Shown one piece after another: positions 31,643-46,200 of a stretch of 64,000 nucleotides of DNA. The notes below the pieces were generated by a model, which was given only the letters and a program-made list of their open reading frames with translations, had not been told where the DNA came from and did not search any database. The position numbers and the translations under genes are program-made. Within the stretch, counting starts at the first letter, position 1; each line of letters begins with the position of its first letter. Location: assembly GCA_041688355.1 (NCBI GenBank), contig JBDNIL010000161.1, positions 2,220 through 66,219 on the forward strand. Reading direction: 5' to 3'. The DNA comes from Verrucomicrobiales bacterium (GTDB lineage: Bacteria; Verrucomicrobiota; Verrucomicrobiia; Verrucomicrobiales; DEV007).

Positions 31643-33781
31643 TCAGCGAAAGAATCGTCCCGCGAGATAATCCATGAGCTTCTTCAACTCTTCGGCCGAG
31701 AGGACACGCTCGAAGAGGATGAGTTCGAAGAGGATGTTTCCCGAAGGCGAATCATAGGAATCACCAAAGCCTCGTTTTCCGATCGCCACGATTCCGAGAG
31801 GCGCACCGCTCACCTCGATGGGACCCTTTGCCTCTGTCGGCGCGGGAGAGCCCGCCGGGCGGATCGAGAGTGACTGCTCTTTTGCCGCAGGATCCCATCG
31901 GTAGCCGATGATGCCGAGGGATCCACTCTCCCAGAGCAGCCCGAGACGGTTTTCGGGGCCGTCTTTCACGGCGCGATTGATCGCAGTCACTTTCCCGTCG
32001 TAGCCAGTCGCGAGTTGGACATATCGACCGTCCCAGACCGGGGCCTGAAGCCGGAAGACGCGGTCATCGCCCGCTTCGAGCCGCACCACCGCGATGAGAG
32101 TAAATCCCCGCGACAGCGACGCCTCGCTCTTCGTCGCCGTGAGCGCGGTGCGGTTCGTCGTCGTGAGCCCGCGATAGACTCCGCGCAGGACAGGATACTC
32201 ATCCGGCCCGACACGCACCAGTAGGGGGAGATGAGTCCCGTTCGGATCGCCGCCGTCGCGGAAGAGGGACCGCTCCTTCGCATCGCTCGCCAGGTTCAGC
32301 CAGGCAGCCACCGGTGCGCCCGGATCAGCCGACGTGCGGTAGTCTCGCCCGAAAGTTCCTTTGCTACCCGAGAACCAGTCAAAGAGCCCCTCTCTGACCG
32401 GCAACGCGGGCGGATCGGGTAGCCCATCTGCCCGGGTGAGTGGTGCCGGCGGTGGCAGAGGATCGAGCTTGGGGGCTGCTTCAGCGGCGGCAGCGGCGCT
32501 CGTGTCAGCCACTGCGGTCCCGTCGTCTCCCCGATCCGTGTTCAGGTAAAAGACGAGCCCCAGAGCTGCGATCGCCGCGATGACCCCGGCGACGAGCCAC
32601 TTCCCGCTTCCCGCGAGGAGGTCGGTCTCCGCTTTCTTCACCGGCCGCGAGGGTCCGGTGTGGCGACCGTGTAGCGGACCAGTGCCGGCAGCGAGAGCTT
32701 GTCGCGAGCTTTTGGTCGAGGGCAGCGGCGCGCCCGAACCGGCAGCACCGCCCACCGGACTGGTGCCGCGACGCCCGGCGGGGATCGGGCCGCTCGCTGT
32801 CCGGATGACCCGTGTCACCGGCCCGCTCGGCGGACGCACCGGTCCGCTCCCGGGAGGACCGACAGGCCCGGTCGTGGGCGGGCCTACCGGTATCATGGCC
32901 GCAAAGGGGATGTCATCGTCAAAGTCGTCGACCTTTGCCGGAGGGACAAAAGGGATCCCTTTGAGCGCCTGATGGAATTCCTTGAGCGCTTCGCGCGCAC
33001 TATCCGGACGATCAGAGGGCTGTCGGGAGACCAGGCGCATGATCCATTCCGCCACGAGCGGCGGGATATCGGTCCTGACGTCACCGATGGGCTTGCAGCG
33101 ATGCCGGATGTGATTCATCGATGTCTCGGCCGGATTGCCCCCGGTAAAGGGCGACTCCTGCGCGAGCATGTAGTAAAAAACGCAGCCGAGGGAGTACAGG
33201 TCGGTGCGCTGATCGAGCGGCCGCAACTCCAGTTGCTCGGGCGCAATGAAGTCGATCGAACCGAGAAAAGACCCGCGTTGATCCAGGGTCTGGACCGAAG
33301 GCTGCTGGCTGAACTTGGCGAGCCCGAAGTCCAACAGCTTCACGAGAAAGCGCCCCGACGCCGTCACCGTGAGCATGATGTTACCCGGCTTGATATCCCG
33401 GTGGAGCAGGTTCAGGTCGCCGGCGGCGACGAGCGGCTCGAGGCATTGCTCCGCCACATAGCTGAAGTCCTCCCGAGAGAGAGCGCCCGACTTCATGATG
33501 GAGTGGAGATCTTCGCCCTCGACCAGTTCCATCACGACAAAGGGCCCCTCGGCATCCTCTTCAATTGCGAAGACCGTAACCACGTTGGGGTGCTGGAAGC
33601 GGGCCAGTGCCGCCGCCTCACGGGCGAGCGATTCGCTGGATGCTTCGTTCAGATTGGTTTCCTCAACGGGGAGGAGCCGCTTAATCGCGACATCGCGCCC
33701 CATGACGGTGTCATAAGCGCGGTAGACAGCGCTCATGCCTCCCCTGCCCACTCTCCCGCGAACCTGATACCGTTCTGACAT
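31643..33781 (-). CDS. Ser/Thr protein kinase with a TM segment and a C-terminal LamG/concanavalin-like domain
   Basis: GRGGMSAVY, AIKRL, HRDIKPGNIML, DFGLAKF. TM segment WLVAGVIAAIAALGLVFYL. The C-terminal ...ILFELILFERVLSAEELKKLMDYL is typical of LamG_3-type ends. Confidence 0.85.
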   Translation of the reverse strand: MSERYQVRGRVGRGGMSAVYRAYDTVMGRDVAIKRLLPVEETNLNEASSESLAREAAALARFQHPNVVTVFAIEEDAEGPFVVMELVEGEDLHSIMKSGALSREDFSYVAEQCLEPLVAAGDLNLLHRDIKPGNIMLTVTASGRFLVKLLDFGLAKFSQQPSVQTLDQRGSFLGSIDFIAPEQLELRPLDQRTDLYSLGCVFYYMLAQESPFTGGNPAETSMNHIRHRCKPIGDVRTDIPPLVAEWIMRLVSRQPSDRPDSAREALKEFHQALKGIPFVPPAKVDDFDDDIPFAAMIPVGPPTTGPVGPPGSGPVRPPSGPVTRVIRTASGPIPAGRRGTSPVGGAAGSGAPLPSTKSSRQALAAGTGPLHGRHTGPSRPVKKAETDLLAGSGKWLVAGVIAAIAALGLVFYLNTDRGDDGTAVADTSAAAAAEAAPKLDPLPPPAPLTRADGLPDPPALPVREGLFDWFSGSKGTFGRDYRTSADPGAPVAAWLNLASDAKERSLFRDGGDPNGTHLPLLVRVGPDEYPVLRGVYRGLTTTNRTALTATKSEASLSRGFTLIAVVRLEAGDDRVFRLQAPVWDGRYVQLATGYDGKVTAINRAVKDGPENRLGLLWESGSLGIIGYRWDPAAKEQSLSIRPAGSPAPTEAKGPIEVSGAPLGIVAIGKRGFGDSYDSPSGNILFELILFERVLSAEELKKLMDYLAGRFFR

Positions 33782-33943: not shown

Positions 33944-34855
33944 ATGGAAGCCTCTCCCCCTCTTCTCGCAGCCATCGAAGCCGGCGGCACCAAGTATGTC
34001 TGCTCGGTCGCCTTTGACCCTCGCGAGCCGCTCCTCGAGACCCGTTTCCCCACTGGTGACCCTGCGGAGACGCTCGCCCGTGCAGCGGACTTTTTCCGGG
34101 AAGCGGCCGCGATCCACGGTCCCATCGCGGCGATGGGCATCGGTACCTTCGGACCGGCGGAGATCGATCCGGCGGCGGCGGATTTCGGCCGCATTCTCAC
34201 GACACCGAAACAGGGCTGGACCGGATACGGAGTCGTCGCGGCGATCCGCGAGAGCCTCGGCAGCGGCTTCCCTATCACCTTCGAGACCGACGTCAATGCC
34301 GCCGTCCTCGCCGAAGCCGTCTACGGAGCGGCCCGGGGGAAACGCCACGTCGCCTACATCACTATCGGAACGGGCATCGGGGGCGGTTTTCTCACCGACG
34401 GCAGACTGCTCCACGGTCGCATGCACCCCGAGATCGGGCATCTCATCGTGCCTGACCTCGATGTCGCCTATGGCAAAGCGAGCAATGTCTGTCCCTTCCA
34501 CGAATCCTGCCTCGAGGGACGGGCGAGCGGCCCGGCGATCGAAGCTCGCTGGGGAATACCCGGCCACGAACTGCCCGACGACCACCCCGCCTGGGAACTC
34601 GAGGCGAAGTATCTCGCCGTCGGCTGCATCAACCTCACGGCGGCGTGGTCACCCGATATCATCATCCTCGGTGGCGGCGTATCGCAAAAGTCGGGTCTGA
34701 TCGAGCGGGTCCGCCACGAGTTCATCAGACTCGCGGGGGACTACTGGTCGCTGCCCGATCCGGCGGAGTACCTGCGCCTGCCCGAGCTCGACCAGCAGGC
34801 CGGGATCGTGGGAGCACTGCTGCTCGCCCGACAGCTGCTCACGCCAGTTGGCTGA
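33944..34855 (+). CDS. ROK-family sugar kinase (fructokinase/Mak-like)
   Basis: AAIEAGGTKYV N-terminal ATP motif, ITIGTGIGGG, and the Cys/His zinc motif region CPFHESCLEGRASGPA. Confidence 0.8.
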   Translation: MEASPPLLAAIEAGGTKYVCSVAFDPREPLLETRFPTGDPAETLARAADFFREAAAIHGPIAAMGIGTFGPAEIDPAAADFGRILTTPKQGWTGYGVVAAIRESLGSGFPITFETDVNAAVLAEAVYGAARGKRHVAYITIGTGIGGGFLTDGRLLHGRMHPEIGHLIVPDLDVAYGKASNVCPFHESCLEGRASGPAIEARWGIPGHELPDDHPAWELEAKYLAVGCINLTAAWSPDIIILGGGVSQKSGLIERVRHEFIRLAGDYWSLPDPAEYLRLPELDQQAGIVGALLLARQLLTPVG

Positions 34856-36197
34856 GACGACCGGTCGAGTCGCCGAAGCGCTCTTCCTTCACCCCGGCGC
34901 GATCAAGCAGACTGAGGAGCACATTGCTCATCGGCGTGGGTTCGGCGAGCACGGTGTGGTGACCGGTCTTGATCGTGCCACCGCCCTGACCGGCGACGAT
35001 CATCGGTAGATTGGTATGGCTGTGCCTATTCGGATCCGCGAGGCCGCAGCCCCAGACGATCATAGAATTATGCAGGAGCGATTTGCCATCGACATCCTTC
35101 TTCGCTTTCAACTGCTCGAGGAAGTAAGCGAACTGCTGCGAATAGAAAAGGTCCACCTTCGCGAGCTTATCGAGGACCTCGGGGGCATTCTGGTGATGCG
35201 AGATGGAGTGGTGCCCGTCGGGCACGCCGATCTCTTTGAAGCTGCGATTGCTGCCGTCGTGGGCAAGGAGGAAGGTCGCTACCCGGGTCGAGTCGGTCTC
35301 GAAGGCGAGCACGAGCATGTCCATCATCAGACGCACGTGTTCCTCGTAGCTCGCAGGAACACCGTCCGGCACCTCGATGCCCGGATCCTCGGGCAGACCG
35401 AATTTTTCGGCCTTCTCGATCCGGCGCTCGATCTCGCGAACGCCGGTCATGTACTCGTCGAGCTTCAACTGGTCATTGCGCCCGAGCTGCTTGTTGAGCA
35501 TCTTCGCGTCCTCCATCACGAAGTCGAGGATGGAGCGCTGGCGCTGGTTGCGCAGCTCGAAGCCTTGTTTACGATCCCCTTTCGAGCCCGCTCCGAAGAG
35601 ACGCTCGAAGACATGGCGCGGATTTGACTCGGGCGTCATCGGGGTCGTATCGGACCGCCACGAGAGATTGAACTGGTAAGCGCAGGAGTAACCCGAGTCG
35701 CACACGCCCGCCTTGCGCACCCCGTCACAGGAGAGCTCGAGCGAGGAAAAGCGGGTCTTGTCGCCGACATGATTTGCGATGACCTGGTCGGCCGAGATCC
35801 CGAGCTTGATGTCGGCCCCGGCCGTTTTGCGGGGACGCGCTCCTGTGAGAAAGGTCGCGTTGGCCCGGGCGTGGTCACCCCCTCCATCGCTGCCGGCCGT
35901 ACCGTTCTTGTGCTCGAGGTTGCCGATGATGTGGAGATCGTCGCGGAACTTCGCATAGGGCTCGTGAGTGGCGCCGAGAGTGAATTCCCCGCCTGTCCCG
36001 GTGACGGCCCACTGGTCCATGTTCATCCCGTTCGGCTTGTAGAGGAACGCGGTGCGCAGCGGAGCACCCGAGGCGGTCGTCGCGGCGCTGCCTTCGGCGG
36101 CGGCGAGTTGGCGGGGCAGGAAGGTCTCCAGGGCCGGGAGAGCAACCCCGGCTCCGAGGCCTTTGAGGAAAATGCGGCGATTTACGGTGGGATTCAT
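34839..36197 (-). CDS. Tat-signal DUF1552-like protein (PVC-typical)
   Basis: Twin-arginine signal NRRIFLKGLGAGVALPALETF. The blocks SADQVIA, NPRHVFERLFG, SILDFV...LDEYMTGVREIERRI, GHHSISHH match my recollection of DUF1552; the family name is from memory. Start moved to ATG 36197. Confidence 0.65.
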   Translation of the reverse strand: MNPTVNRRIFLKGLGAGVALPALETFLPRQLAAAEGSAATTASGAPLRTAFLYKPNGMNMDQWAVTGTGGEFTLGATHEPYAKFRDDLHIIGNLEHKNGTAGSDGGGDHARANATFLTGARPRKTAGADIKLGISADQVIANHVGDKTRFSSLELSCDGVRKAGVCDSGYSCAYQFNLSWRSDTTPMTPESNPRHVFERLFGAGSKGDRKQGFELRNQRQRSILDFVMEDAKMLNKQLGRNDQLKLDEYMTGVREIERRIEKAEKFGLPEDPGIEVPDGVPASYEEHVRLMMDMLVLAFETDSTRVATFLLAHDGSNRSFKEIGVPDGHHSISHHQNAPEVLDKLAKVDLFYSQQFAYFLEQLKAKKDVDGKSLLHNSMIVWGCGLADPNRHSHTNLPMIVAGQGGGTIKTGHHTVLAEPTPMSNVLLSLLDRAGVKEERFGDSTGRLSQLA

Positions 36198-36301
36198 GGC
36201 GAAAAGGGTTGGTGCGGACAGCCTGCTACTATTGACAGGATACGTTCGCGCCGCGTTCAAACAATTAACGTATTCAAGGACGACCGAAAGTGTCATTCGG
36301 G

Positions 36302-37123
36302 CTATTCGACTGACTTCGCCGGCGCCCTGCCGAGCGCCCGCACAAACGCGACGAGTTCCCAGATCTCCTTTTCACTGAGAAGGCCGGCGTAGCCTATCAT
36401 CGGAGTCCCGTTCATCCCCGTCGCGATGGTGCGGTAAAGATCGCGCGGCGAATCGCCCGACTTGTGATGCGGGGAGGCAAGATTCGCGGGGAAAATGGGC
36501 TCATTCCATGCATCCATGAGACTGCCGGCTCCCTGCCCGTCGCCCCTGCCTTCCGCCCCATGGCAGATCACGCAGAGCTGGGCGAATCGCGTCTTTCCGT
36601 TCGCCGCGTGAATGGCGGCTTGCTTCTCGAGCGCGAACCATTCCGGCACCGGCGGGATCGTGAGTGGCACCGCGACGAGCGTGGGATCGTTCCAAGTCCG
36701 CGAGAGATTCTGCAAGTAGACGATCAGGGCACCGACCTCTTCGTCGGAGATCCGGGTGAAAACTGGCATCGCCGTTCCGGAGATCCCACTGCGGATCGTG
36801 CGGCGCAGATCGTCTTTCACCGGGAGCATTCCGAACGGGGTCGTGCGGAATTTAAACAAGCCCGTCCGGAAGTTGCGCGGTTTCGTCTCGAGCTCTGCCG
36901 CCCACGGACCGTTCCCGCGCCCGGTCGTGCCATGGCAATCGGCGCAGTGCTTTTGGAAGAGGTAGCGCCCCTTCATATAAAGAGGGAGTTCACGCCGTTT
37001 TTCCCCGCTCATCTCTGCTGCCGGAGCGGCATCCTGCGAGAGTAGCCATTCTCCCGTCGAAGCGACGAAGGCCGTGCACATGAATCCCGCTAAAAGAGAT
37101 AGATGCTTGATGGAAAGAGACAT
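36302..37123 (-). CDS. Di-heme c-type cytochrome, membrane-anchored or secreted
   Basis: Two CxxCH sites (CADCH, CVICH), each followed by a Met-containing distal segment. N-terminal hydrophobic anchor. Confidence 0.85.
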   Translation of the reverse strand: MSLSIKHLSLLAGFMCTAFVASTGEWLLSQDAAPAAEMSGEKRRELPLYMKGRYLFQKHCADCHGTTGRGNGPWAAELETKPRNFRTGLFKFRTTPFGMLPVKDDLRRTIRSGISGTAMPVFTRISDEEVGALIVYLQNLSRTWNDPTLVAVPLTIPPVPEWFALEKQAAIHAANGKTRFAQLCVICHGAEGRGDGQGAGSLMDAWNEPIFPANLASPHHKSGDSPRDLYRTIATGMNGTPMIGYAGLLSEKEIWELVAFVRALGRAPAKSVE

Positions 37124-37183: not shown

Positions 37184-40100
37184 CTATTCAAAGCCCCGCA
37201 TTGCTCCCTTTCCGCCGCCCTCGAACCACTCCGGCTCGGGCCAGGCGTAGGGACGGAAGAGTTCGGCCGTGCCGCTAGGTTCGTCGTAGTAGAGCGCCCG
37301 GTTCAGCCCGAGATCCGACGCCTTGCCCGTATCGATGAGACTGGCCGAGTCGGCCGCGCTCATTTGAAAGAGAACCTTTTTCTCAAACTCCCCGGCCGCC
37401 TTCCTTCCGAGATTACGCGCCACGTTGTTGTAGGAATCGAGGGAAACAATGACGTGATAGCCCCAGCCCGGTCCTTCACAGATCAGCTCGTGGAGGGAAT
37501 CCGACGGTTTCGCCTCGGACGCCGCCTCGAGGGAAAAGCTGTAGTCGTCTTCGTAGCGCAGCTTTTTGTAGCGATGCAGATTCGGGATGAATAGCAGCGT
37601 GCTCCGCCCCGGACCGGGAGTCTCTCCCTCGGCGACCGCTTTCATCTCCGCCGCGAGATCGTTCAGGACCGCGCCCATCCCGTGCACGCCGGAACACTCG
37701 ACTCCGCCCACCGCGGCGATGGCCCGGCGGTAGTGCGAAGCCGCGTCATCCTCCGCGCAGCGGCTGTCGAGCAGGACGAGGCGCACGGCCTCGCCGAACT
37801 GCCCCCGCAGCAGCCGCAGCCCGATCACGACGAAGGCATCCACGACGTCCTCACGCTGACCGACGATGAGTAGATTGCTCCCGCTCTGGCGGGGAAAGCT
37901 CACCTCGGTCGGTCCTTTGATGGCATTGGGAGCGCCGAGGAAAAAGCGCGGTGGTTCGGAGCGCGAGGCGACCGGTGCGCCCCCGAGGACACGATTGACG
38001 TAGGCATCGTCCGCCACACTGGCCGGGGCATTGCCCTCGAAGACGACCCGCCCGCGATCCGTCATCGACTGGCTCCGCGCCAGCGCGGCAACCCCGGCGA
38101 GCAGATCATCGCGCTCCGCTTCATTCATCCAGACGACTTGAAATGGCGAGTTCGCCTCAATCGCCCCGGCGCGATCATTGTAGATCCCCTCGCCCGGGCG
38201 GGTCAGAAGACGCGGCGCGGGATTCGAATCATCCATGATCAGATAAGCGTCCGCCTCGTTGCAGGCCAGCGCGATCCGCACCGTCATCTGCCCCAGCGTC
38301 GCACGAGCGAGAGTGAAGGCACCCCCGAGCGTCTGCGATCCTAACACGGCATGAATCCCGAAGGCCCGGCCCTGGCGCACGATACGGTCCAGCAACACCG
38401 CTGCCTGTTGCGAGATCTGGTCGTCTTCGGTGAAAAATTCCTGAAACTCGTCGATCAGCAGCAGGGTGCGCGGCATCGACGGGGCTCCCGGACGACTGCG
38501 ATAGCCCGCGAGATCCTGGACGCCCGCAGCGCGGAAAAGCTCGCCGCGATTTTTCAATTCCTCGTCGAGCCGCATCAGGACACTGAGCCCGAACTCCCGA
38601 TCGCTCTCGATCGCGATGACGCGGGCGTGCGGCAGATGATGATCCGCGTAGCACTTGAACTCGACGCCCTTTTTGAAATCGATCAGGTAAAACTCCACCT
38701 CGTCCGGATCGCACCAGAGCGCGAGATTCGTGATGATGATGTGGAAGAGCGTCGATTTACCCGAACCTGTTTTCCCCGCGATGAGCGCGTGCTGGCAGGT
38801 TCCCTTGCCGAGAGAAAGGTATTGCAGCTTCGTCGCGCCACTGCGACCGATCGGGACTCGCAGTTCGCCGGCAGTGTCGACGCTCCAGCGCTCGTCTTCC
38901 TTCGGCGCGATGTGGGAGAATGGCACCTCGATGCGGTTCGAGTCGCGGTTCGCCGCTCCGAGACGATGCACCCAGCGCACAAATACCTCGGCCGGTGGTG
39001 GCGCGAGGAGAGACAGCGCGGTGCCCTTGACCGGATTCTCCCGGACGGAAAAACCCTCCTCTCCCGACCGCAGGCAGAAGCAGGCGTGGCGGAGATCCTC
39101 CATCGCAAAACCCTGCGGCAGCTCGGCACGTTCGTCGCGGTGAATGAAGAGAAAAACGCCGCACCTCGCCCCCGACGCAGCGATGCTCAGGAGCCGTCGC
39201 GCCGCCAGCTCGGTGAAACCTTTCGGGAAATCCGCCACGACAAGGAAGTGGTAGCGCTCCGCGATCGTCCCTGCCGCCTCGTTGTATTGCGTGATCGTCT
39301 CATAGTCATTCCGCAGATACATCTGGATCACTTTTTCCATGTGATCGCAGAGTTCCCCGAGACGACGCTCGATCTGCTCGGGCTGGGTGCGGATACGGGT
39401 GTTGATGAGAATCTCCTCGTAGTCCGCCAGATGCATCAGCCCGGCAAAACTCTCCCCGAGACCGACCGGATCGACAAGGGAAAACGAGAGTCGACCCGCC
39501 GGCGATCCCGCGAGCCAGGCGAGGACGAGGTAGTTCAGATGGGCGATCGCCTCGTCGCGGCCTTTCTGCTTTGTCTCGATCAAGAGCGAGGCCGCGTGCG
39601 GGATTTTAAGCCTGAGCGGGAGATGAAAATCGATCTCGCCCGGCAGGGCAAGTTGCTGTGACTTCGGACGCACCGTCGCTTCCTCTCCGCCTTTCCACGA
39701 GAGCGATCCGAACCGGCGGGTCGACGCCACCGTCGTGGGAGCGGTCCATTGATCCGGCGACTCGCCGGTCAGCCCGGGGTCGGTCAGCTCGCTCGCCGAC
39801 TCGGCCCTGAGTCGCTCCACTGCCGGGACGATTTCCGCAGACCACTGCCGGACCAACGCTTTGAACTGCTCGCCGAGATCACTCTGCGCCACACCCGCAT
39901 CTCCGCCTCCTGCCGCTGCGGCAAGGCGTTTGTCACGAGCCGCCTCGAGGACCCCGATCCGATCCGCGAGTCGCTGATTGCACTGATCGACCCGGGCCGA
40001 CTGCAGTTCCCCGAGCCGCTTCTTCAGAAGCTCGGCACGTTTCTCGACCTCTTCCGGACTCGCGTAGCGAGAGGGCCCGCGCCCCCCGCCCGGCCCCTTT

Positions 40101-41065
40101 TTCAGCCCGTGCTTGAACTCCGCTTTGACCCGCGCGTAATCGACCTCGATCTCGTCGACCGCGACGCGATAAGAAATCTCGACCTCCTCGCGGTGACGCA
40201 GACGCATCCCCTTCGCCTCGGCGAGTGACTCGAGATTGTCTTCGAGATAGCGCCCCGCCGCCTTCCGCGCCACTGACCAGAGGATCACTATCATTACAAG
40301 AATGCCAACACCTGCCGCAATGCTCACCGCCCACGACACCTGCATCCCGAAAGACGGCATTACCAGCGGAGCCGTCCCCGCCGCCCCGAGGACGAGAAAG
40401 AGCTGCAAGATGAGCGGGAACCCGCTGAACCACGCCACCAATGGCGAGCGGCCCAGCTCTCGGGTGGCCTGTGAGAGGGTTTCGTGACGGGCATTGGGGT
40501 CCACCTCGGTGATGCTGACACGGACCGGCGTCTCCACCTCCTTTAGTGCGAAAAGGAGCCGCCGCGACAAACTCGCAAAACCCCGCAGCGCCGCCGCCGC
40601 CGCCTTTTCCAGCTTCACGTGCTTTGTGTGGATCTTCTTCGAGATCGCCTCACCCTCTTCGTAAGCGCTCGTCACCTCCGCGAGCCGTTGCTCACGCGCC
40701 CTCCCCGCGTTCATGAAATCCCGCTGTAGCTCGCCGCGGTGCTGGCCCTCGGTCGCCTGGATCCCCGCGATGACCGCCTGACGCACCCCGATCTGCGCCT
40801 TTTCAAGGCGGGCCCGGCGGGTACGACCGACTCTCGAGATAGCGTCACAGGACTGGACGGCCGCCTCGCGGAGACGGGCCACGGCGGCGCGATGTTCGCG
40901 CTCGATCTCGGCACGCTCTTCCGCGATCGTCTGGCGCAGGCTCGAGTCCCGCAACTGACCGGCGCGGTCGAGTCCCTTTTCGCGCTCAGCAAAAGATCGC
41001 ACCCCGCCCGAGAGTTGCCCGAGGAGCGCCACTGTTTCCGGAGCAGAGAGATTTTCAGATTTCAC
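37184..41065 (-). CDS. Membrane FtsK/SpoIIIE-family ATPase, EssC/EccC-like (three P-loop modules, only the central one canonical)
   Basis: Walker A AGKTGSGKST (38750-38776). Walker B LLLIDEFQEF (38435-38464). FYLIDFKKGVEF block. Two TM helices at about aa 209-265. Coiled-coil N-terminus. Flanking degenerate modules at about aa 480-650 and 1040-1260. GTG start at 41065 overlaps the upstream gene by 11 nt. Confidence 0.85.
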   Translation of the reverse strand: MKSENLSAPETVALLGQLSGGVRSFAEREKGLDRAGQLRDSSLRQTIAEERAEIEREHRAAVARLREAAVQSCDAISRVGRTRRARLEKAQIGVRQAVIAGIQATEGQHRGELQRDFMNAGRAREQRLAEVTSAYEEGEAISKKIHTKHVKLEKAAAAALRGFASLSRRLLFALKEVETPVRVSITEVDPNARHETLSQATRELGRSPLVAWFSGFPLILQLFLVLGAAGTAPLVMPSFGMQVSWAVSIAAGVGILVMIVILWSVARKAAGRYLEDNLESLAEAKGMRLRHREEVEISYRVAVDEIEVDYARVKAEFKHGLKKGPGGGRGPSRYASPEEVEKRAELLKKRLGELQSARVDQCNQRLADRIGVLEAARDKRLAAAAGGGDAGVAQSDLGEQFKALVRQWSAEIVPAVERLRAESASELTDPGLTGESPDQWTAPTTVASTRRFGSLSWKGGEEATVRPKSQQLALPGEIDFHLPLRLKIPHAASLLIETKQKGRDEAIAHLNYLVLAWLAGSPAGRLSFSLVDPVGLGESFAGLMHLADYEEILINTRIRTQPEQIERRLGELCDHMEKVIQMYLRNDYETITQYNEAAGTIAERYHFLVVADFPKGFTELAARRLLSIAASGARCGVFLFIHRDERAELPQGFAMEDLRHACFCLRSGEEGFSVRENPVKGTALSLLAPPPAEVFVRWVHRLGAANRDSNRIEVPFSHIAPKEDERWSVDTAGELRVPIGRSGATKLQYLSLGKGTCQHALIAGKTGSGKSTLFHIIITNLALWCDPDEVEFYLIDFKKGVEFKCYADHHLPHARVIAIESDREFGLSVLMRLDEELKNRGELFRAAGVQDLAGYRSRPGAPSMPRTLLLIDEFQEFFTEDDQISQQAAVLLDRIVRQGRAFGIHAVLGSQTLGGAFTLARATLGQMTVRIALACNEADAYLIMDDSNPAPRLLTRPGEGIYNDRAGAIEANSPFQVVWMNEAERDDLLAGVAALARSQSMTDRGRVVFEGNAPASVADDAYVNRVLGGAPVASRSEPPRFFLGAPNAIKGPTEVSFPRQSGSNLLIVGQREDVVDAFVVIGLRLLRGQFGEAVRLVLLDSRCAEDDAASHYRRAIAAVGGVECSGVHGMGAVLNDLAAEMKAVAEGETPGPGRSTLLFIPNLHRYKKLRYEDDYSFSLEAASEAKPSDSLHELICEGPGWGYHVIVSLDSYNNVARNLGRKAAGEFEKKVLFQMSAADSASLIDTGKASDLGLNRALYYDEPSGTAELFRPYAWPEPEWFEGGGKGAMRGFE

Positions 41066-41270
41066 AGTCGTCCTTCAGTTTCTTCAACACCTTGTCGAGA
41101 TCATCGATCGCCGTCGCGGCGTGATTCACCGCAGCGAACATGGGCTGCATGTAGATGCTGTCAAATTCCCTTCCCTTCTGATCGCGCCACGAGTCCTGCG
41201 TCTCCTGCCAGATCCGGAGGAGGTCTCTCGAGAGCCCCACGAGGCGTCCTTTGCTGTGATTCAGACTCAT
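41055..41270 (-). CDS. Small WXG100-like helical protein (W-R-D variant)
   Basis: 71 aa. TQDSWRDQKGREFDSIYMQPM aligns with the turn region of the 90-aa paralogue two genes upstream in the operon (W, +8 Phe, +12 aromatic). Confidence 0.6.
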   Translation of the reverse strand: MSLNHSKGRLVGLSRDLLRIWQETQDSWRDQKGREFDSIYMQPMFAAVNHAATAIDDLDKVLKKLKDDCEI

Positions 41271-41278
41271 GAAAAAGT

Positions 41279-41749
41279 TTACGCGTCGTCCGAGTAGGCT
41301 CTCAACTGGCGTACCGACTCGGTCAGAAAAGTCACCGCCCTCGCCATCTCGATGTCGATCTGCTGGCGCAGCTTCTCGGCCTTACGCGCCTCGGTCTCGA
41401 CGACGGAGTCAAAGTTTCGCAACCAGCCTTTCACCGCGCGGATCTTCCCCTCGAGTTCATGGATCTCGCGGCGCTTTTTGTTGATCTGCATCTGCATGCC
41501 CGTCTTTTTCTGGGCGAGATCGGAGAGGCGGGCCGTGAACATCTCCTGCTCGAGCTGCTCCATTTCGCGCTGCCGTCGTTTCATCTCGTGGGTCAGCTTC
41601 ATCGCCTGCTCAGTCTGGAGCCAGATGCGGGTGCGCTTCACTTCCTCGCTCACTTCGTCGAGGGCGAAGCCGGCCCGCTCCAGAAAGAGGACGAGGCTGG
41701 ACCGAAAACGCTCCAGCGCCTCAATGTTGGTGACATTTGCCTCGGACAC
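41279..41749 (-). CDS. Coiled-coil protein of unknown function within the T7SS-like operon
   Basis: 156 aa of heptad-rich sequence (EMKRRQREMEQLEQEMFTARLSDLAQKKTGMQMQINKKRREIHELEGKIRAVK). Gaps of 7-nt and 8-nt to its neighbours. Confidence 0.65.
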   Translation of the reverse strand: MSEANVTNIEALERFRSSLVLFLERAGFALDEVSEEVKRTRIWLQTEQAMKLTHEMKRRQREMEQLEQEMFTARLSDLAQKKTGMQMQINKKRREIHELEGKIRAVKGWLRNFDSVVETEARKAEKLRQQIDIEMARAVTFLTESVRQLRAYSDDA

Positions 41750-41756
41750 GGGAGGA

Positions 41757-42029
41757 TTAGCGCTGGTTCAAGTAGTCCTCAATGCGCTGGGCCTTGCGCA
41801 TGAGAAAGGGTGACTGCTGGCTCGAGCTCTCCATGAAGCGCCGCAGCACTTTCATCGTTTCCTGGAAATCCTGGGCAAATTTCGCGTGCTCGGCATCCTG
41901 CCACGTATCGCTCAGCCCCGCGAATCGGGCCTGCAGGGAGGAAAGCGAATTCTGCAGATCACCGTTAAAGCGCTTCAACTCCTCGGCAAACCGCCGCAAC
42001 TCGTTCGGGTCCACAATCGCCTTTGACAT
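41757..42029 (-). CDS. WXG100 (ESAT-6/EsxA)-like protein (W-Q-D variant)
   Basis: 90 aa. IVDPNELRRFAEELKRFNGDLQNSLSSLQARFAGLSDTWQDAEHAKFAQDFQETM follows the EsxA pattern (..I.v.PeElr ... W-x-G ... F..F) except for Asp in place of Gly. Confidence 0.7.
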   Translation of the reverse strand: MSKAIVDPNELRRFAEELKRFNGDLQNSLSSLQARFAGLSDTWQDAEHAKFAQDFQETMKVLRRFMESSSQQSPFLMRKAQRIEDYLNQR

Positions 42030-42154: not shown

Positions 42155-42748
42155 ATGAACCCCCACGAATCTCCCTCGACCCGACTCATTCACTCTCTCA
42201 ATCGCCGGCTCGACGAACTCATCGTGCAGCTCAGTCTTGGCAAATCCGAAGCGGCCGAGCAGGTCGAAGCCACGAAAAAGAGTCTCCACGAAAAACTCGG
42301 CAAAGTGCGGTCAGCGATCATCCCCGGCGGCAGCAGCGAGGCCTTTGTCGCGAAGCTCGATCACCTCCGCGTCCAGCTCGCCCTCGGCAAAATGGAGACC
42401 CGCGATGCCTGCGCGGCCCAGCGGGAAAAAATCCATCACGCCCTCGACGACGCCCGCACCGGATTCCACCACTTCGAGGACCGCGTCCGCGAAGACCTCG
42501 ATGATTCCGCCTCCACCCTCGAACTCAAGCTCAACGCCCTCGCCCTCGATCTCGGCATCGGCGCTATTGTGGCCGAAGACGAGCTGAAAACGCGGAAGGA
42601 AGAACTCGCCGCCCGGGCCTCCCGCCTCGCCGGCAAACTAAAAGCCTCCGCCTCCGCCGTCGGTGAAGAAGCCGAGAACGTCGCCCGCGAGGCGCGCCTC
42701 GCTTATGAGGATATTCGCGACAATCTGAAGCACTTATTTCATTCTTAG
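42155..42748 (+). CDS. Helical-repeat hypothetical protein, divergent from the T7SS-like operon
   Basis: 197 aa with three internal repeats: LDELIVQLSLGKSEAAEQVE, LDHLRVQLALGKMETRDACA, LELKLNALALDLGIGAIVAE. Confidence 0.6.
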   Translation: MNPHESPSTRLIHSLNRRLDELIVQLSLGKSEAAEQVEATKKSLHEKLGKVRSAIIPGGSSEAFVAKLDHLRVQLALGKMETRDACAAQREKIHHALDDARTGFHHFEDRVREDLDDSASTLELKLNALALDLGIGAIVAEDELKTRKEELAARASRLAGKLKASASAVGEEAENVAREARLAYEDIRDNLKHLFHS

Positions 42749-43293: not shown

Positions 43294-46200
43294 ATGAATC
43301 GACTTCTCCTCCTCATCCTGTGCTTTGCCCTCATCGCCTCAACCTCGACCCGGGCAGAAACCCCGCTCGAAGCCGGAGCCGCCACCGTCGACATCTCGCC
43401 GCAGAAACTCCCCGCGATCCGCAACGGAGGTTTTCTCCAAGCCATCGCCGACCGGGTCGATGATCCGCTCCACGCGCGGGCTCTCGTGCTGCGATCGGGG
43501 GACACTACCGTCGCGATTTGTGTCGTCGATTCCTGCATGCTGCCCACCGATGTCTGCGACGCGATCAAAGCGACGGTCACTGCGGCGATAGGGCTGCGGG
43601 CGGATCATATCCTCATCTCCTCGACGCACACCCACTCCGCCCCGGGGGCAATGGCGCTGTGTCTCGGGACACGCAAAGACGAGGCCTACACCGCGCAGAT
43701 GATCCCGCAGGTCGCCGAGGCGATCACCAAAGCCCATGCCGCCCTCACTCCCGCGAAGGCGGGTTGGGTGCAGGTCGATGCCCATGCCTTCACGAACTGC
43801 CGCCGCTGGATCCGGCGGCCTGACAAAATGCTAACCGATCCCTTCGGTGAGGTCAGTGTCCGCGCGATGATGCATCCCGGTTATGAAAGCCCCGACGTCG
43901 TGGGCCCCTCCGGTCCGACCGATCCGCAGCTCTCGCTCCTCAGCCTCGTCCGCGCCAACGATGAAAAACCCATCGCAATGATGGCCAACTATTCGATGCA
44001 CTACTTCGGAGCCGCCGCCGGATTTTCCGCCGACTACTTCGGCGAGCTCGCCGGCATGATCGAGAATGCCCTCGGCAATGACGCCGTCGGTCTCGTCTCT
44101 CAGGGCACGAGCGGCGACCTCCACTACATGGACTACAGCCGGGCAAAAGACGCCGATCTCACCCGCACCAAATACGCCGCCGGGCTCGCCGAAATCGCGC
44201 TGAAAGCACGAGCTGACATCACCCACCGCGCCGATCTCCCACTCGCCATGGCCGAAACAAAACTTCCCCTCGGGCGACGCCTTCCCTCCGCCGAACGTCT
44301 CGCCTGGGCCACGCCTCTCAATGCAACCCGGGCCGGAGCCATCCCCAAAAGCAAGGAGGAGGTCTATGCTGAGCAGGCCGAGTGGATCCATGCGAATCCG
44401 CAGACCGAACTCATCCTCCAAGCCCTGCGCCTTGGCGATCTCGCCATCACCGCCCTGCCGAACGAGGTCTACGGCATCACCGGCTTGAAGCTTAAAGCTC
44501 AGAGCCCCCTGCCCGCCACTTTCAACATCGAACTCGCCAACGGAGCCGAGGGCTATATTCCGCCGCCCGAGCAGCACCACCTCGGCGGCTACACGACCTG
44601 GCCCGCCCGCACCGCAGGTCTCGAGGAAAGCGCCGAGCCGCGAATCGTGGAAAATATTATCGTTTTGTTAGAGAAGGTCAGCGGGAAGTCCCGTCGTCCC
44701 CTCCACGACGGGGACGGCCCCTATCGCCGCGCCATCCTCGCCGATGAACCGATCGCCTACTGGCCGCTCAACGACCTCTCCGGTCCGCAGCCCCGCGAAG
44801 CGACCGGCAGGACATCGGCCACCTGGGAAGACGGTGTTGCCTACGGTCTGCCCGGAGTGCAGGGCAGCGGCGGTGCGATCTCGGCGGAACCGGAAAAGGC
44901 CAATCCTTTCACCGACGCCGGCATCAACCGCTCCGCTCACGTCGCCGGAGCGCGTCTCCGGACCACCCTACCGGACTTCTCCCGCACCTACAGCGCGGAA
45001 CTCTGGTTCTGGAACGGTCTCCCCGACGACGCCCGCCCCGTCACTGGTTACCTTTTTTCCCGGGGCAAAGACGGCGACAAAAGCGCCCTCGGCGATCATC
45101 TCGGGATCGGCGGTAATCATCCCGACGTGCCGGCGGGTCGTCTCTTTTTCTTCACCGGCAACGAGGTCGGTCGCGTCGTCCCGGGGGAAACGCGCCTGAG
45201 TTTCCGTGACTGGCATCATGTCGTGCTCGTCCGAGAAGAGGACAAAGTGACGGTCTACCTCGACGGGAAGAAAGAGATCGTGGCGGAGGCACCCTGGACG
45301 ATTCCCGCGAGCGATGGCGAGATCTTCCTCGGCGGCCGCAGCGACGGTTTATTCGGGCTCGAAGGCAAGCTGGATGAGGTAGCACTTTATCCCGTTGCCC
45401 TGACCGGAGAACAGGTCGCCGCGCATTTTGCGGCGGCGGAGCGCGTCGCGACAGAACCCAAACCCGACTCTGAAGCCCGCGCGCCAGAGTTCAGTCTTCA
45501 GGCTCTCCATCTTCCCGACGGATTCGAAGCCCGCATCGTCGCGGCGGAACCGCTCGTGCTCGATCCGGTTGCTTTTGACTGGGACACAAAGGGCCGTCTC
45601 TGGGTCGTGGAGATGGCCGACTACCCGCTCGGACTCGACAACGCCGGCGCCCGCGGCGGCCGCCTTCGCGTACTTGATGATCGCGATCGCGACGGCACCT
45701 ACGATCACAGCACCCTCTTCGCCGATGGCCTGAATTTTCCCAATGGTCTCATCACCTGGCGAACTGGGGTCATCATCACGGCCGCGCCCGACATCCTTTA
45801 CCTTGAAGACACCGACGGTGACGGCAAAGCCGACAAGACCGAGGTCCTCTACTCCGGCCTCAGCGAAGGCAACGAACAACTCCGCGCCAACGGCCTGCGC
45901 TGGGGGCTCGACAACTGGATCCATGTCGCCGCCGGCGGTCACCACGGCAAGCACGGGGCGGACACGAAGCTGCGCTCGACCCGGACCGGCACCGAGACCC
46001 TCGTCGGGAGTCGCGACTTCCGCATTCGTCCCGATACCGGGGAGATCGAAGCGCAGAGCGGACCGACCCAGTTCGGGCGCAACCGCGACAATTGGGGGCA
46101 CTGGTTCGGCACACAGAACTCACATCCGCTCTGGCACTACGTGTTGCCCGATCAATATCTGAAACGCAACCCGCACTTCGCCGCGCCCGAGGGCCGCGTC

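What the first reader, a model, noticed from the sequence alone, without database searches (positions are those of the whole stretch)
37184..42029. Compact ESX/type VII secretion-like module in a PVC-type (outer-membrane-bearing) genome
Seen in sequence:
- Four minus-strand genes are packed as one operon, with gaps of 7 and 8 nt followed by an 11-nt overlap.
- They encode a 90-aa WXG100-like protein, a 156-aa coiled-coil protein, a 71-aa WXG100-like paralogue, and a 1293-aa two-TM FtsK/SpoIIIE ATPase with three P-loop modules.

Established knowledge: a WXG100 substrate next to an EssC/EccC-type multi-domain FtsK/SpoIIIE ATPase is the minimal defining signature of type VII secretion in Actinobacteria and Firmicutes.

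Inference:
- This is a highly reduced or divergent T7SS-like export or assembly system.
- No EssA/EssB/EsaA/YukD and no EccB/D/E/MycP equivalents are visible within about 10 kb on either side.
- The host context (PSCyt/DUF1549/DUF1553, PVC heme-binding protein, Verrucomicrobia-type SOS box) points to a diderm.
- The membrane channel, the outer-membrane step and the biological role are therefore all open questions.
Basis: partly seen in the sequence, partly recalled or inferred. Interest (0 to 1): 0.85.

Follow-up and report, generated by a model that had tools for sequence, protein, structure and literature searches.

The report
Minimal T7SS-like cassette in Verrucomicrobia
A four-gene operon pairing an ESAT-6-like (WXG100) protein with an EccC/EssC-like membrane ATPase is real and is conserved across hundreds of Verrucomicrobiota species, but such pairings in Gram-negative phyla were already reported from genome surveys and none, this one included, has been tested experimentally.

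Summary
The four minus-strand genes exist exactly as described, with gaps of 7 and 8 nt and an 11-nt overlap. The 90-aa protein is a true WXG100 protein (Pfam above threshold); its closest solved relative is H. pylori HP0062. The 1293-aa protein is EccC/EssC-like, not FtsK-like. It has an N-terminal coiled coil, a TM hairpin, a stalk and three tandem ATPase-fold modules.

Two details are wrong:
- Only the central module has Walker A/B motifs; the other two are degenerate.
- The 71-aa protein is predicted as one long helix, so "WXG100 paralogue" is unsupported.

The cassette occurs in at least 591 species genomes, almost all Verrucomicrobiota. All four genes are in order in 71 of 76 loci with enough upstream sequence. 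Flanks are not conserved, and no other T7SS component is linked. A Chloroflexota-labelled relative has a WXG100–peptidase fusion next to the ATPase, and a natural WXG100–156-aa fusion exists. Both favour an export role.

The kind is already known from genome analysis (Sutcliffe 2011; Anantharaman 2012; Bell 2024 describe the same ATPase architecture without TM helices). It is a new, membrane-anchored, phylum-wide member of that untested kind. Interest is moderate.

The parts
41757..42029 (-). 90-aa WXG100-family protein. The turn motif is W43-Q-D45. The C-terminus '...KAQRIEDYLNQR' is nearly invariant across the family.
   Evidence: Pfam PF06013 scores 36 bits against a cutoff of 27.3. The best PDB hit is H. 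pylori HP0062, full length, E 5e-7 as a single sequence and 2.6e-9 as a profile; Bacillus EsxB follows. There are 1244 clusters at 90% identity, nearly all of the listed ones exactly 90 aa. Median identity across 71 loci is 62%.
41279..41749 (-). 156-aa helical or coiled-coil protein of no known family. It is a probable partner of the WXG100 protein.
   Evidence: Only sub-threshold hits to coiled-coil families were found. It is present in 74 of 84 loci. A natural fusion of WXG100 with this protein exists: P0266, with BLASTP E 4e-8 and family HMM E 2e-30.
41055..41270 (-). 71-aa protein predicted as a single long helix, with a nearly invariant C-terminal R-x-D-C-E motif. Its stop overlaps the ATPase start by 11 nt.
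   Evidence: AF2 gives pLDDT 93.4 and a helix spanning residues 3-70. Foldseek finds no match. It is present in 76 of 84 loci. WXG100 similarity is only marginal.
37184..41065 (-). 1293-aa EccC/EssC-like membrane ATPase (whole gene, including the stop codon).
   Evidence: PF01580 E 4.5e-31. Best NCBIfam hits are EccCa, EccCb and EssC, far above FtsK. PDB sequence hits are EccC and YukB, far above FtsK. About 21 full-length homologues have 60-90% identity.
40451..41065 (-). ATPase residues 1-205: cytoplasmic N-terminal helical or coiled-coil region, poorly conserved.
   Evidence: No Pfam family matches. Median identity is 19.5%. In the Chloroflexota locus L085 this part plus a TM segment is encoded by separate genes.
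40256..40450 (-). ATPase residues 206-270: hydrophobic hairpin of two TM helices with a loop of about 10 residues.
   Evidence: Hydropathy is and the translation. A comparable hydrophobic stretch is present in nearly all of the 78 family members.
39656..40255 (-). ATPase residues 271-470: cytoplasmic helical stalk, poorly conserved.
   Evidence: Median identity is 16.6%. No family hit.
38894..39655 (-). ATPase residues 471-724: first ATPase-fold module, with a degenerate P-loop ('LLIETKQKGRDEA') and Walker B ('FLVVADFP').
   Evidence: The AF2 model shows an alpha/beta module. The collinear Foldseek alignment to EccC D1-D3 spans 828 columns. hhalign gives only weak matches at the P-loop and Walker B strands.
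38066..38893 (-). ATPase residues 725-1000: the only catalytically competent module. Walker A GKTGSGKS lies at nt 38753-38776 and Walker B LLLIDE at nt 38447-38464.
   Evidence: Motifs are. Median identity is 74%. By sequence it matches EccC D1 best.
37187..38065 (-). ATPase residues 1001-1293: degenerate C-terminal ATPase-fold module and candidate substrate receptor.
   Evidence: hhalign against the central module gives probability 94.6% and E 7e-8. 'LLIVGQRED' falls on the Walker A position and 'LLFIPNLHRY' on Walker B.

Best explanation
This is a self-contained, four-gene, T7SS-like protein-export module of a Verrucomicrobiales bacterium.

Proposed mechanism:
1. The 1293-aa protein is an EccC/EssC-type translocation ATPase. 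It is anchored in the cytoplasmic membrane by a two-helix hairpin.
2. Like other FtsK-superfamily ATPases, it most likely assembles into a hexamer. Its 12 TM helices may then form the only membrane conduit, or they may recruit an unlinked one.
3. Only the central ATPase module hydrolyses ATP.
4. The degenerate C-terminal module probably serves as the substrate receptor, as EccC D3 does for the EsxB tail.
5. The substrate is most likely a helical bundle built from a dimer of the 90-aa WXG100 protein together with the 156-aa and 71-aa helical proteins. The near-invariant C-terminal tails of the WXG100 and 71-aa proteins are candidate recognition signals.
6. The complex would be moved across the inner membrane into the periplasm. 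No dedicated outer-membrane step is encoded.

What is shown: gene order, homology, domain architecture, motif degeneracy, cassette conservation, and the absence of linked accessory genes.

What is inferred: hexamer formation, which proteins are substrates, the direction and destination of transport, and the biological role.
For: - WXG100 membership is above the Pfam threshold, and there is a full-length match to the HP0062 hairpin dimer (the HP0062 structure is described in PMC3397514).
- The ATPase groups with EccC/EssC by sequence and by fold (E 1.5e-28 over 828 columns to EccC D1-D3). It has a TM hairpin that is conserved in nearly all family members.
- The central module has intact Walker A/B motifs and 74% median identity. 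The C-terminal module is a degenerate homologue.
- The four genes are tightly packed or overlapping, which suggests translational coupling. All four are kept in order in 71 of 84 loci; the scan returned at least 591 confirmed matches among species-representative genomes, and flanks are unrelated.
- A Rosetta-stone fusion of WXG100 with the 156-aa protein links these two physically.
- In a Chloroflexota-labelled relative (WXG100 56% and ATPase 46% identical to the window), a WXG100 domain fused to a C39-like peptidase sits directly downstream of the ATPase. Another relative has WXG100 fused to a domain of about 130 aa, followed by a small ORF. These are the classic layout of T7SS cargo.
- The C-termini of the WXG100 and 71-aa proteins are nearly invariant.
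Against: - No secretion data exist for any member of this family. A 2023 review states that Gram-negative WXG100/FtsK pairs are not confirmed as secretion systems.
- No membrane-channel partner and no outer-membrane component is linked.
- The periplasmic loop of the ATPase is only about 10 residues.
- The WXG100 protein is unusually conserved for a secreted T7SS substrate: 62% median identity, higher than the ATPase overall. This would also fit a structural or regulatory role inside the cell.
- The canonical signals are absent. The turn is W-Q-D, and the C-terminal Y86-x-x-x ends in Arg, not Asp or Glu.
- No cargo-like WXG fusion was found in the window or next to the 80 Verrucomicrobiota-type loci.
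- Closely similar TM-less ATPases occur inside CoCoNuT/TerY-P conflict systems. Their authors propose a mechanism different from membrane translocation.
Confidence: 0.55

Rival explanations
1. The module is a membrane-associated intracellular machine rather than an exporter. The WXG100, 156-aa and 71-aa helical proteins would form a conserved cytoplasmic or inner-membrane-face assembly with a structural, envelope-stress or regulatory role. The ATPase would assemble, remodel or disassemble it, and nothing would cross the membrane.
For: - The WXG100 protein is more conserved (62%) than the ATPase as a whole (46%), and far more than typical secreted WXG100 proteins (about 15% identity among WXG100 proteins is quoted in PMC6471051).
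- No channel or outer-membrane partner is linked.
- The periplasmic loop is tiny.
- The ATPase carries long coiled coils on both sides of the TM hairpin.
- No cargo gene sits next to the Verrucomicrobiota cassettes.
- The cassette is phylum-wide and compositionally native, which suggests housekeeping.
Against: - Relatives carry WXG100 domains fused to enzyme-like C-terminal domains next to the ATPase. This is hard to explain without export.
- In every experimentally studied case, EccC/EssC-type ATPases paired with WXG100 proteins are exporters (established knowledge of T7SSa and T7SSb; PMC10765036).
- EsxA in T7SSb is itself a conserved core component that is also secreted (abstract of PMC13355648, listed).
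Confidence: 0.2
2. The module is a biological-conflict (defence or antagonism) cassette related to the WXG100/EssC-like extensions of TerY-P and Type III-A CoCoNuT systems. Here it stands alone and would act in phage defence or interbacterial competition rather than in normal physiology.
For: - Bell et al. 2024 describe the same unusual architecture inside CoCoNuT operons: three ATPase domains with only the central one active, an N-terminal coiled coil of about 200 residues, two small WXG100 proteins of which one lacks WxG, and a coiled-coil protein. They cite Anantharaman 2012 for stand-alone mobile versions.
- H. pylori has WxG/FtsK pairs, both alone (HP0062/HP0066) and with TerY-P.
- Relatives have WXG fusions to a peptidase-like domain and to a domain carrying a D..E.K-like motif.
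Against: - PADLOC gives only generic FtsK/HerA-domain hits.
- The neighbours are metabolic or PVC-typical genes, not defence islands. There is no VWA, PP2C or McrBC. A Ser/Thr kinase lies 3.4 kb away but is not conserved with the cassette.
- The 156-aa protein lacks any nuclease domain.
- The cassette is present in at least 591 species with strong sequence conservation, native GC content and local synteny in close relatives. This is unlike the patchy distribution of defence genes.
Confidence: 0.15
3. The large protein is an FtsK/SpoIIIE/TraB-type DNA translocase for chromosome segregation or conjugation, and the small genes are unrelated passengers.
For: - The catalytic module belongs to the FtsK/SpoIIIE family (PF01580).
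- FtsK motor domains and the TcpA coupling protein are significant fold matches for one module.
Against: - FtsK scores far lower than EccC/EssC: 29 vs 104 bits and 40 vs 102 bits.
- No FtsK alpha or gamma domain, and no 4-TM FtsK N-terminal domain, is detected.
- The tandem three-module architecture is that of EccC/EssC.
- The small genes are co-conserved and translationally coupled with the ATPase.
- No relaxase or other conjugation gene lies nearby.
Confidence: 0.03

Closest known systems
WXG100 / EssC-like ATPase operon described by Anantharaman, Iyer & Aravind 2012 and Bell et al. [quoted passage not shown]
   Same: As described in PMC11090510, these operons have:
- an EssC homologue with three ATPase domains of which only the central one is predicted active;
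- a long coiled coil (200 residues or more) at the ATPase N-terminus;
- two small WXG100-type proteins, one lacking the WxG motif;
- an additional coiled-coil protein.
The window's cassette has all of these features.
   Different: - The window's ATPase has a conserved TM hairpin after the coiled coil. The CoCoNuT-associated ones are described as lacking TM helices.
- The 156-aa coiled-coil protein has no D-ExK nuclease domain.
- There is no VWA/TerY-P/McrBC context.
- The 71-aa protein is predicted as one helix, not a WXG-like hairpin.
- Direct sequence homology to those published loci was not tested here.
Helicobacter pylori HP0062 (WXG100-like, PDB 3FX7/2GTS) with the FtsK/SpoIIIE protein HP0066
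   Same: - HP0062 is the best solved-structure match of the 90-aa protein, over its full length and with the same W-[RQ]-D turn.
- It is a hairpin that forms an antiparallel homodimeric four-helix bundle.
- It comes from a Gram-negative organism and clusters with an FtsK/SpoIIIE gene. The pair is called a minimal T7SS set in PMC4978471.
   Different: - The H. pylori cluster also holds a DnaK homologue and an HNH nuclease.
- I could not compare HP0066 with the window's ATPase, nor check whether equivalents of the 156-aa and 71-aa proteins exist there.
- The function of HP0062 is also unknown.
T7SSb (Bacillota: EssC/YukB + EsxA/YukE)
   Same: - A WXG100 protein plus a membrane-bound ATPase with a two-TM hairpin and tandem FtsK-like modules.
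- EssC D2-D3 and YukB are strong fold and sequence matches.
- Small helical partner proteins accompany substrates.
- Relatives carry N-terminal WXG-type domains on enzyme cargo.
   Different: - There are no FHA domains at the ATPase N-terminus. No EssA, EssB, EsaA or EsaB/YukD was detected.
- Only one catalytic module is present. Bell et al. 2024 describe EssC as having Walker motifs in both D1 and D2.
- The score is far below the NCBIfam EssC cutoff (77 vs 778 bits).
- The host is a diderm.
T7SSa / ESX (Actinomycetota: EccC + EsxA/EsxB)
   Same: - The best overall sequence and fold match of the ATPase is T. curvata EccC, then EccC5.
- The C-terminal module is non-catalytic, like the substrate-binding D3.
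   Different: - No EccB, EccD, EccE or MycP was detected.
- There is no YxxxD/E signal and the turn is W-x-D.
- Scores are far below the EccCa and EccCb cutoffs (104 vs 509 and 87.5 vs 347 bits).
- There is an extra N-terminal coiled coil before the TM hairpin.
FtsK/SpoIIIE DNA translocases
   Same: The catalytic RecA-like module has the same fold and the same Walker A/B motifs, and keeps the conserved Arg of the 'RIAL' strand, which I take to be the arginine finger (inspection of the sequence).
   Different: - No alpha or gamma domain and no 4-TM N-terminal domain was detected.
- The modules are tandem and partly degenerate.
- Scores are much weaker than to EccC/EssC.

Membership tests
Type VII secretion system in the broad sense (WXG100 + EccC/EssC-type ATPase) | A WXG100-family protein is encoded in the cluster | tested here: met
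   PF06013 scores 36.0 bits against a gathering score of 27.3. HP0062 and EsxB are the top PDB hits. TIGR03930 is below its cutoff (30.9 vs 44.85 bits).
Type VII secretion system in the broad sense (WXG100 + EccC/EssC-type ATPase) | A membrane-bound FtsK/SpoIIIE ATPase with several tandem ATPase modules | tested here: met
   There is a TM hairpin and three ATPase-fold modules collinear with EccC D1-D3. Only one module has Walker motifs. The NCBIfam EccC/EssC equivalog cutoffs are not reached.
Type VII secretion system in the broad sense (WXG100 + EccC/EssC-type ATPase) | ATPase-dependent export of the WXG100 protein | not testable with these tools
   This needs fractionation or secretome analysis of wild type against a K770 mutant. 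A 2023 review says it is unconfirmed for all Gram-negative pairs.
Type VII secretion system in the broad sense (WXG100 + EccC/EssC-type ATPase) | Canonical W-x-G turn and a C-terminal YxxxD/E-type signal on a substrate | tested here: not met
   The turn is W43-Q-D45. The C-terminus is Y86-L-N-Q-R90. HP0062 shares the W-R-D variant.
T7SSa (ESX) | EccB, EccD, EccE and MycP encoded with EccC | tested here: not met
   None is found among the Pfam-annotated larger neighbours within about 10 kb; small neighbouring ORFs were not scanned. No flanking family is shared by more than 4 of 84 loci.
T7SSb (Ess/Yuk) | EssA, EssB/YukC, EsaA/YueB and EsaB/YukD encoded nearby; FHA domains at the EssC N-terminus | tested here: not met
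   The ATPase shows no FHA or YukD hit. The neighbours are unrelated. There is no conserved flank.
T7SSc-j (Garrett, Higginson & Palmer 2024) | TsxC ATPase + TsxA WXG100, usually a ubiquitin-like TsxB; found in Bacillota or Actinomycetota | tested here: not met
   No ubiquitin-like gene is present, and the host is Verrucomicrobiota. The paper does not mention these phyla. Individual subtype components were not compared.
Stand-alone / CoCoNuT-associated WXG100-EssC-like operon (Anantharaman 2012; Bell 2024) | An EssC-like ATPase with three ATPase domains of which only the central one is active, and a long N-terminal coiled coil | tested here: met
   establish the modules. The N-terminal 205 residues are helical, poorly conserved and match no family.
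Stand-alone / CoCoNuT-associated WXG100-EssC-like operon (Anantharaman 2012; Bell 2024) | Two WXG100-fold small proteins (one without WxG) plus a coiled-coil protein | tested here: inconclusive
   The 90-aa protein is WXG100. The 156-aa protein is coiled-coil-like but has no nuclease domain. The 71-aa protein is predicted as one helix with only marginal similarity to WXG100.
Stand-alone / CoCoNuT-associated WXG100-EssC-like operon (Anantharaman 2012; Bell 2024) | Direct sequence homology to the published loci | not tested
FtsK/SpoIIIE DNA translocase | 4-TM N-terminal domain, alpha-beta motor, and gamma (KOPS-binding) winged helix | tested here: not met
   No FtsK_alpha, Ftsk_gamma or FtsK_4TM hit was found. 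The NCBIfam FtsK score is 28.7 bits against a cutoff of 1566. The C-terminus is a degenerate ATPase module.

The most novel reading that the evidence does not exclude
The cassette may be a vertically inherited, phylum-wide housekeeping translocon of Verrucomicrobiota, also present in some other PVC and Chloroflexota lineages. On this reading it is the minimal form of type VII secretion. A hexamer of a single ATPase with one catalytic ring would form the inner-membrane channel through its own 12 TM helices, with no EssB/EccD-type partners. It would deliver a highly conserved complex of the WXG100, 156-aa and 71-aa helical proteins into the periplasm of a classical diderm, for an envelope function rather than for antagonism.
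Probability: 0.2. Interest if true: 0.8.

Novelty: new member of a known kind. Interest (0 to 1): 0.5.

Why it matters
If the module really exports proteins, it would be the simplest T7SS-like machine known: one membrane protein and three small soluble ones. It would also work in bacteria with a conventional outer membrane. That bears on two open questions in the T7SS field: what forms the membrane channel, and what the WXG100 protein does for the machine.

Reviews describe Gram-negative occurrences as a 'limited number' of sequences. Conservation in at least 591 Verrucomicrobiota species is much broader than that. It also offers cultured hosts for experiments; Spartobacteria bacterium LR76 appears to be an isolate, while the Prosthecobacter entries are labelled MAGs. 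The cargo-bearing Chloroflexota relative gives a natural comparison system.

If the module does not export, then a WXG100 protein with an intracellular role, conserved across a phylum, would itself be instructive.

Tried and rejected
- **Heterodimer or complex modelling.** Heterodimerisation therefore remains untested.
- **71-aa protein as a WXG100 paralogue.**
  - hhalign of the 90-aa family against the 71-aa family gave probability 5.6%, although it did align the shared W-x-D...F motif.
  - The AF2 model is a single helix.
  - Foldseek gave no hit.
  - The PDB profile search gave only designed helical proteins.
  - The claim is rejected as unsupported.
- **156-aa protein.**
  - hhalign against both small families found nothing.
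  - The DUF2203 hit does not hold across the family: 2 of 16 members.
  - The PDB profile search found nothing meaningful.
- **ATPase N-terminal region and stalk against the small proteins.** Nothing significant.
- **A conserved extra component, such as a channel or outer-membrane protein.** Clustering all flank ORFs within 6 kb across the 84 loci found no family in more than 4 loci.
- **Defence-system membership.** PADLOC gave only generic ATPase-domain hits.
- **Promoter and terminator scan.** It was uninformative: 3 promoter-like sites against 0.8 expected, none upstream of the first gene, and terminator-like sites at background level.
- **Additional WXG-like genes in the window.** None found.
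- **Primary literature.** Sutcliffe 2011 and Anantharaman 2012 could not be read. Their content is cited only through papers that quote them.

Full report
**1. The observation**

The ORF list confirms four minus-strand ORFs:
- 41757-42029 (90 aa);
- 41279-41749 (156 aa);
- 41055-41270 (71 aa);
- 37184-41065 (1293 aa).

They are separated by 7 nt and 8 nt, and the last pair overlaps by 11 nt. GC content across the cassette (0.62-0.63) matches the rest of the window.

**2. The 90-aa protein**

- It passes the Pfam WXG100 gathering threshold (36.0 vs 27.3 bits).
- Its best solved relative is Helicobacter pylori HP0062 (3FX7/2GTS). The match is full length, with E 5e-7 as a single sequence and 2.6e-9 as a family profile. 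Bacillus EsxB entries follow.
- HP0062 is a helix-turn-helix hairpin that forms an antiparallel homodimeric four-helix bundle. It has W-R-D in place of W-x-G (PMC3397514). The window protein has W-Q-D.

**3. The ATPase**

- Pfam finds FtsK_SpoIIIE (E 4.5e-31).
- NCBIfam ranks EccCa (104 bits), EccCb (87.5) and EssC (77) far above FtsK (28.7). All are well below the equivalog cutoffs.
- PDB sequence hits rank T. curvata EccC (102 bits), EccC5 (93) and YukB (76) above FtsK (40) and TcpA (31).
- There is a single canonical Walker A (GKTGSGKS, residues 764-771, K770) and a single Walker B (LLLIDE, residues 868-873).
- There is one hydrophobic hairpin at about residues 207-270, with a loop of about 10 residues. 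It follows about 205 cytoplasmic helical residues.
- The hairpin is present in nearly all of the 78 family members examined.

I modelled residues 455-1293 with AF2, using 20 sequences. The model has mean pLDDT 71.7 and pTM 0.52, and shows three successive alpha/beta modules.

Foldseek against the PDB gives these top hits:
- the three-ATPase cytoplasmic domain of T. curvata EccC (E 1.5e-28, 828 aligned columns);
- EccC D2-D3 and EssC D2-D3;
- FtsK motors, which match only one module (about E 1e-12).

Profile-profile comparison shows that the C-terminal module (1001-1293) is homologous to the central one (probability 94.6%, E 7e-8). 'LLIVGQRED' lies on the Walker A position and 'LLFIPNLHRY' on Walker B. 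The N-terminal module (471-724) shows only weak matches at the same strands.

One catalytic module is flanked by two degenerate ones.

**4. The 71-aa and 156-aa proteins**

*The 71-aa protein*
- Its only family-level signals are TIGR03930 at E 0.048 and an hhalign probability of 5.6% against the 90-aa family. That alignment does place W-R-D...F on W-Q-D...F.
- Only 2 of 30 family members hit PF06013 weakly.
- AF2 with 30 sequences gives pLDDT 93.4 and one continuous helix over residues 3-70.
- Foldseek finds nothing.
- I therefore treat 'WXG100 paralogue' as unsupported. A hairpin that forms only within a complex cannot be excluded.

*The 156-aa protein*
- It has only sub-threshold coiled-coil-type hits and no consistent family.

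**5. Distribution and conservation**

- The ATPase has about 21 full-length homologues at 60-90% identity and one at 48%.
- The cassette recurs with different flanks in four metagenomic loci.
The best 80 are almost all labelled Verrucomicrobiota, including Verrucomicrobiales, Limisphaerales/Pedosphaera, Chthoniobacterales, Akkermansiaceae, Prosthecobacter, Luteolibacter and Spartobacteria LR76.
- Across the 84 loci, all four genes are present in order in 71. Eight of the 13 exceptions are contig-end truncations, and two are ATPase copies with no small genes upstream.
- Median spacings are +4, -4 and -8 nt.
- No flanking gene family within 6 kb occurs in more than 4 loci.

Median identity to the window proteins across 71 loci:

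| Component | Median identity |
|---|---|
| 90-aa WXG100 | 62% |
| ATPase, whole protein | 46% |
| ATPase central module | 74% |
| ATPase N-terminal module | 51% |
| ATPase C-terminal module | 43% |
| ATPase coiled coils and TM hairpin | 17-23% |
| 71-aa protein | 40% |
| 156-aa protein | 36% |

The extreme C-termini of the WXG100 protein ('...KAQRIEEYLxQR') and of the 71-aa protein ('...RxDCE') are nearly invariant.

**6. Relatives that inform function**

A profile search of 1.84 billion representative proteins with the WXG100 family found 1225 hits at E below 1e-3. Most are about 90 aa or are fragments. Three longer ones matter.

*P0266 (262 aa)*
- It is a natural fusion of the WXG100 protein with the 156-aa protein (BLASTP E 4e-8; family HMM E 2e-30).
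- In its contig it is followed by a homologue of the 71-aa protein and the start of the ATPase.

*P0335 (359 aa)*
- It comes from a MAG that NCBI labels Chloroflexota.
- It consists of WXG100, a hydrophobic segment and a C39-like peptidase domain (22.3 bits against a cutoff of 24).
- It lies immediately downstream of a split version of the same cassette: WXG100 (90 aa), a 194-aa homologue, a 70-aa homologue, two genes each encoding a coiled coil plus a TM segment, and a TM-less 976-aa ATPase.
- That ATPase is 46% identical to the window's, and the WXG100 protein is 56% identical.

*P0291 (227 aa)*
- It consists of WXG100 plus a domain of about 130 aa containing 'EIDIETSNAIVEVTTQRSGK', which resembles a D..E.K motif. 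I did not test this.
- A small ORF follows it.

These layouts are the usual signature of T7SS cargo, and so they support export for the wider family. No such cargo gene was seen in the window or next to the Verrucomicrobiota loci.

**7. Context**

The larger neighbours within about 10 kb are:
- DUF1552 and a dihaem cytochrome c;
- a 1676-aa DUF7133 protein;
- a Ser/Thr kinase;
- an M1 peptidase and an ABC-F protein;
- a polyprenyl synthetase, glutamine synthetase and TPR proteins.

None is a T7SS accessory family. Small neighbouring ORFs were not scanned individually. PADLOC gives only generic FtsK/HerA-domain hits.

**8. Comparison with the literature**

- WXG100 proteins in Cyanobacteria, Lentisphaerae, Proteobacteria and Verrucomicrobia were reported by Sutcliffe 2011, as cited in PMC6471051.
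- A 2023 review notes a 'limited number' of Gram-negative WXG100 sequences alongside an FtsK/SpoIIIE protein, 'not yet confirmed functionally as secretion systems' (PMC10765036).
- NCBI already names the Verrucomicrobiota proteins 'WXG100 family type VII secretion target'.
- Bell et al. 2024 (PMC11090510) describe, inside Type III-A CoCoNuT/TerY-P operons:
  - an EssC homologue with three ATPase domains, only the central one active;
  - an N-terminal coiled coil of more than 200 residues and no TM helices;
  - two WXG100 proteins, one without WxG;
  - a coiled-coil-nuclease fusion.

  They cite Anantharaman 2012 for stand-alone versions.
- The T7SSa-j classification covers only Bacillota and Actinomycetota (PMC11217815).
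- I found no paper on T7SS in Verrucomicrobiota specifically.

**9. Verdict**

*Best explanation.* This is a self-contained T7SS-like exporter (confidence 0.55). A hexameric, single-catalytic-ring, EccC-like ATPase would move a helical complex built around the WXG100 dimer across the inner membrane. The degenerate C-terminal module would act as the receptor.

*Rivals.*
- An intracellular, membrane-associated assembly or remodelling machine (0.2). This is favoured by the unusually high conservation of the WXG100 protein and by the lack of any channel or outer-membrane partner.
- A conflict or defence cassette related to the CoCoNuT/TerY-P extensions (0.15).
- A DNA translocase (0.03).

*Novelty.* It is a new member of a kind that has been described from genome analysis but never tested experimentally. 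The added facts are:
- phylum-wide conservation;
- a fixed four-gene composition;
- a TM-anchored ATPase;
- the fused and cargo-bearing relatives.

*Interest.* Moderate (0.5).

Noticed in passing
L085:1877-11874 (NCBI GCA_040752025.1, labelled Chloroflexota): This is a split variant of the same cassette. The N-terminal coiled coil plus TM part of the ATPase is encoded by two separate paralogous genes, one of which carries an extracytoplasmic FGE-sulfatase domain. The ATPase itself (976 aa) has no TM segment. Downstream lie a WXG100-C39-like peptidase fusion and a 792-aa pentapeptide-repeat membrane protein.
   Followed up: partly
L045:8004-11756 and L048:7968-11912: These ATPase homologues (about 43-44% identity) have no WXG100, 156-aa or 71-aa gene upstream. 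Unrelated genes sit there instead: a 519-aa enzyme and a response regulator. They may be orphan or paralogous copies, or the small genes may lie elsewhere in those genomes.
   Followed up: partly
window 31643-33781 (-): A 712-aa Ser/Thr protein kinase lies 3.4 kb downstream of the ATPase. Kinases are frequent in the newer T7SS subtypes and in TerY-P systems. This one is not co-conserved with the cassette in other loci.
   Followed up: partly
window 34839-37123 (-); L001:13203-15494; L005 downstream of the ATPase: A dihaem cytochrome c plus DUF1552 (HXXSHH) gene pair follows the ATPase in the window and in L001, and a DUF1552 gene follows it in L005 (ATPases 64% and 82% identical). It is absent in more distant loci. 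This local synteny argues for vertical inheritance within Verrucomicrobiales.
   Followed up: partly
window 43294-48324 (+): A 1676-aa protein combines a ceramidase-like N-terminal region, a Laminin_G_3 domain, DUF7133, HEAT repeats and a C-terminal cytochrome c domain. It is a typical PVC 'giant' haem-binding protein and is unrelated to the cassette.
   Followed up: no
window 42155-42748 (+): A 197-aa all-helical-looking protein with no Pfam family is transcribed divergently from the WXG100 gene. It is not conserved next to the cassette elsewhere.
   Followed up: no
P0280 (143 aa, from the profile search): A WXG100 domain of this family is fused to a sigma-70 region-4-like helix-turn-helix. 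It may be a real fusion, or an assembly or frameshift artefact.
   Followed up: no
L012, L043, L062, L026, L040, L055, L060 (record titles): Contigs carrying the Verrucomicrobiota-type cassette sit in MAGs labelled Klebsiella, Bifidobacterium, Bifidobacteriaceae, Acidobacteria-type candidate genera or Bacteroidetes. Mis-binning or mislabelling is more likely than true occurrence in those taxa.
   Followed up: no
156-aa family: Most homologues of the 156-aa protein are longer (median 178 aa). They carry a variable Pro/Ala/Glu-rich, probably disordered C-terminal tail that the window's copy lacks.
   Followed up: no
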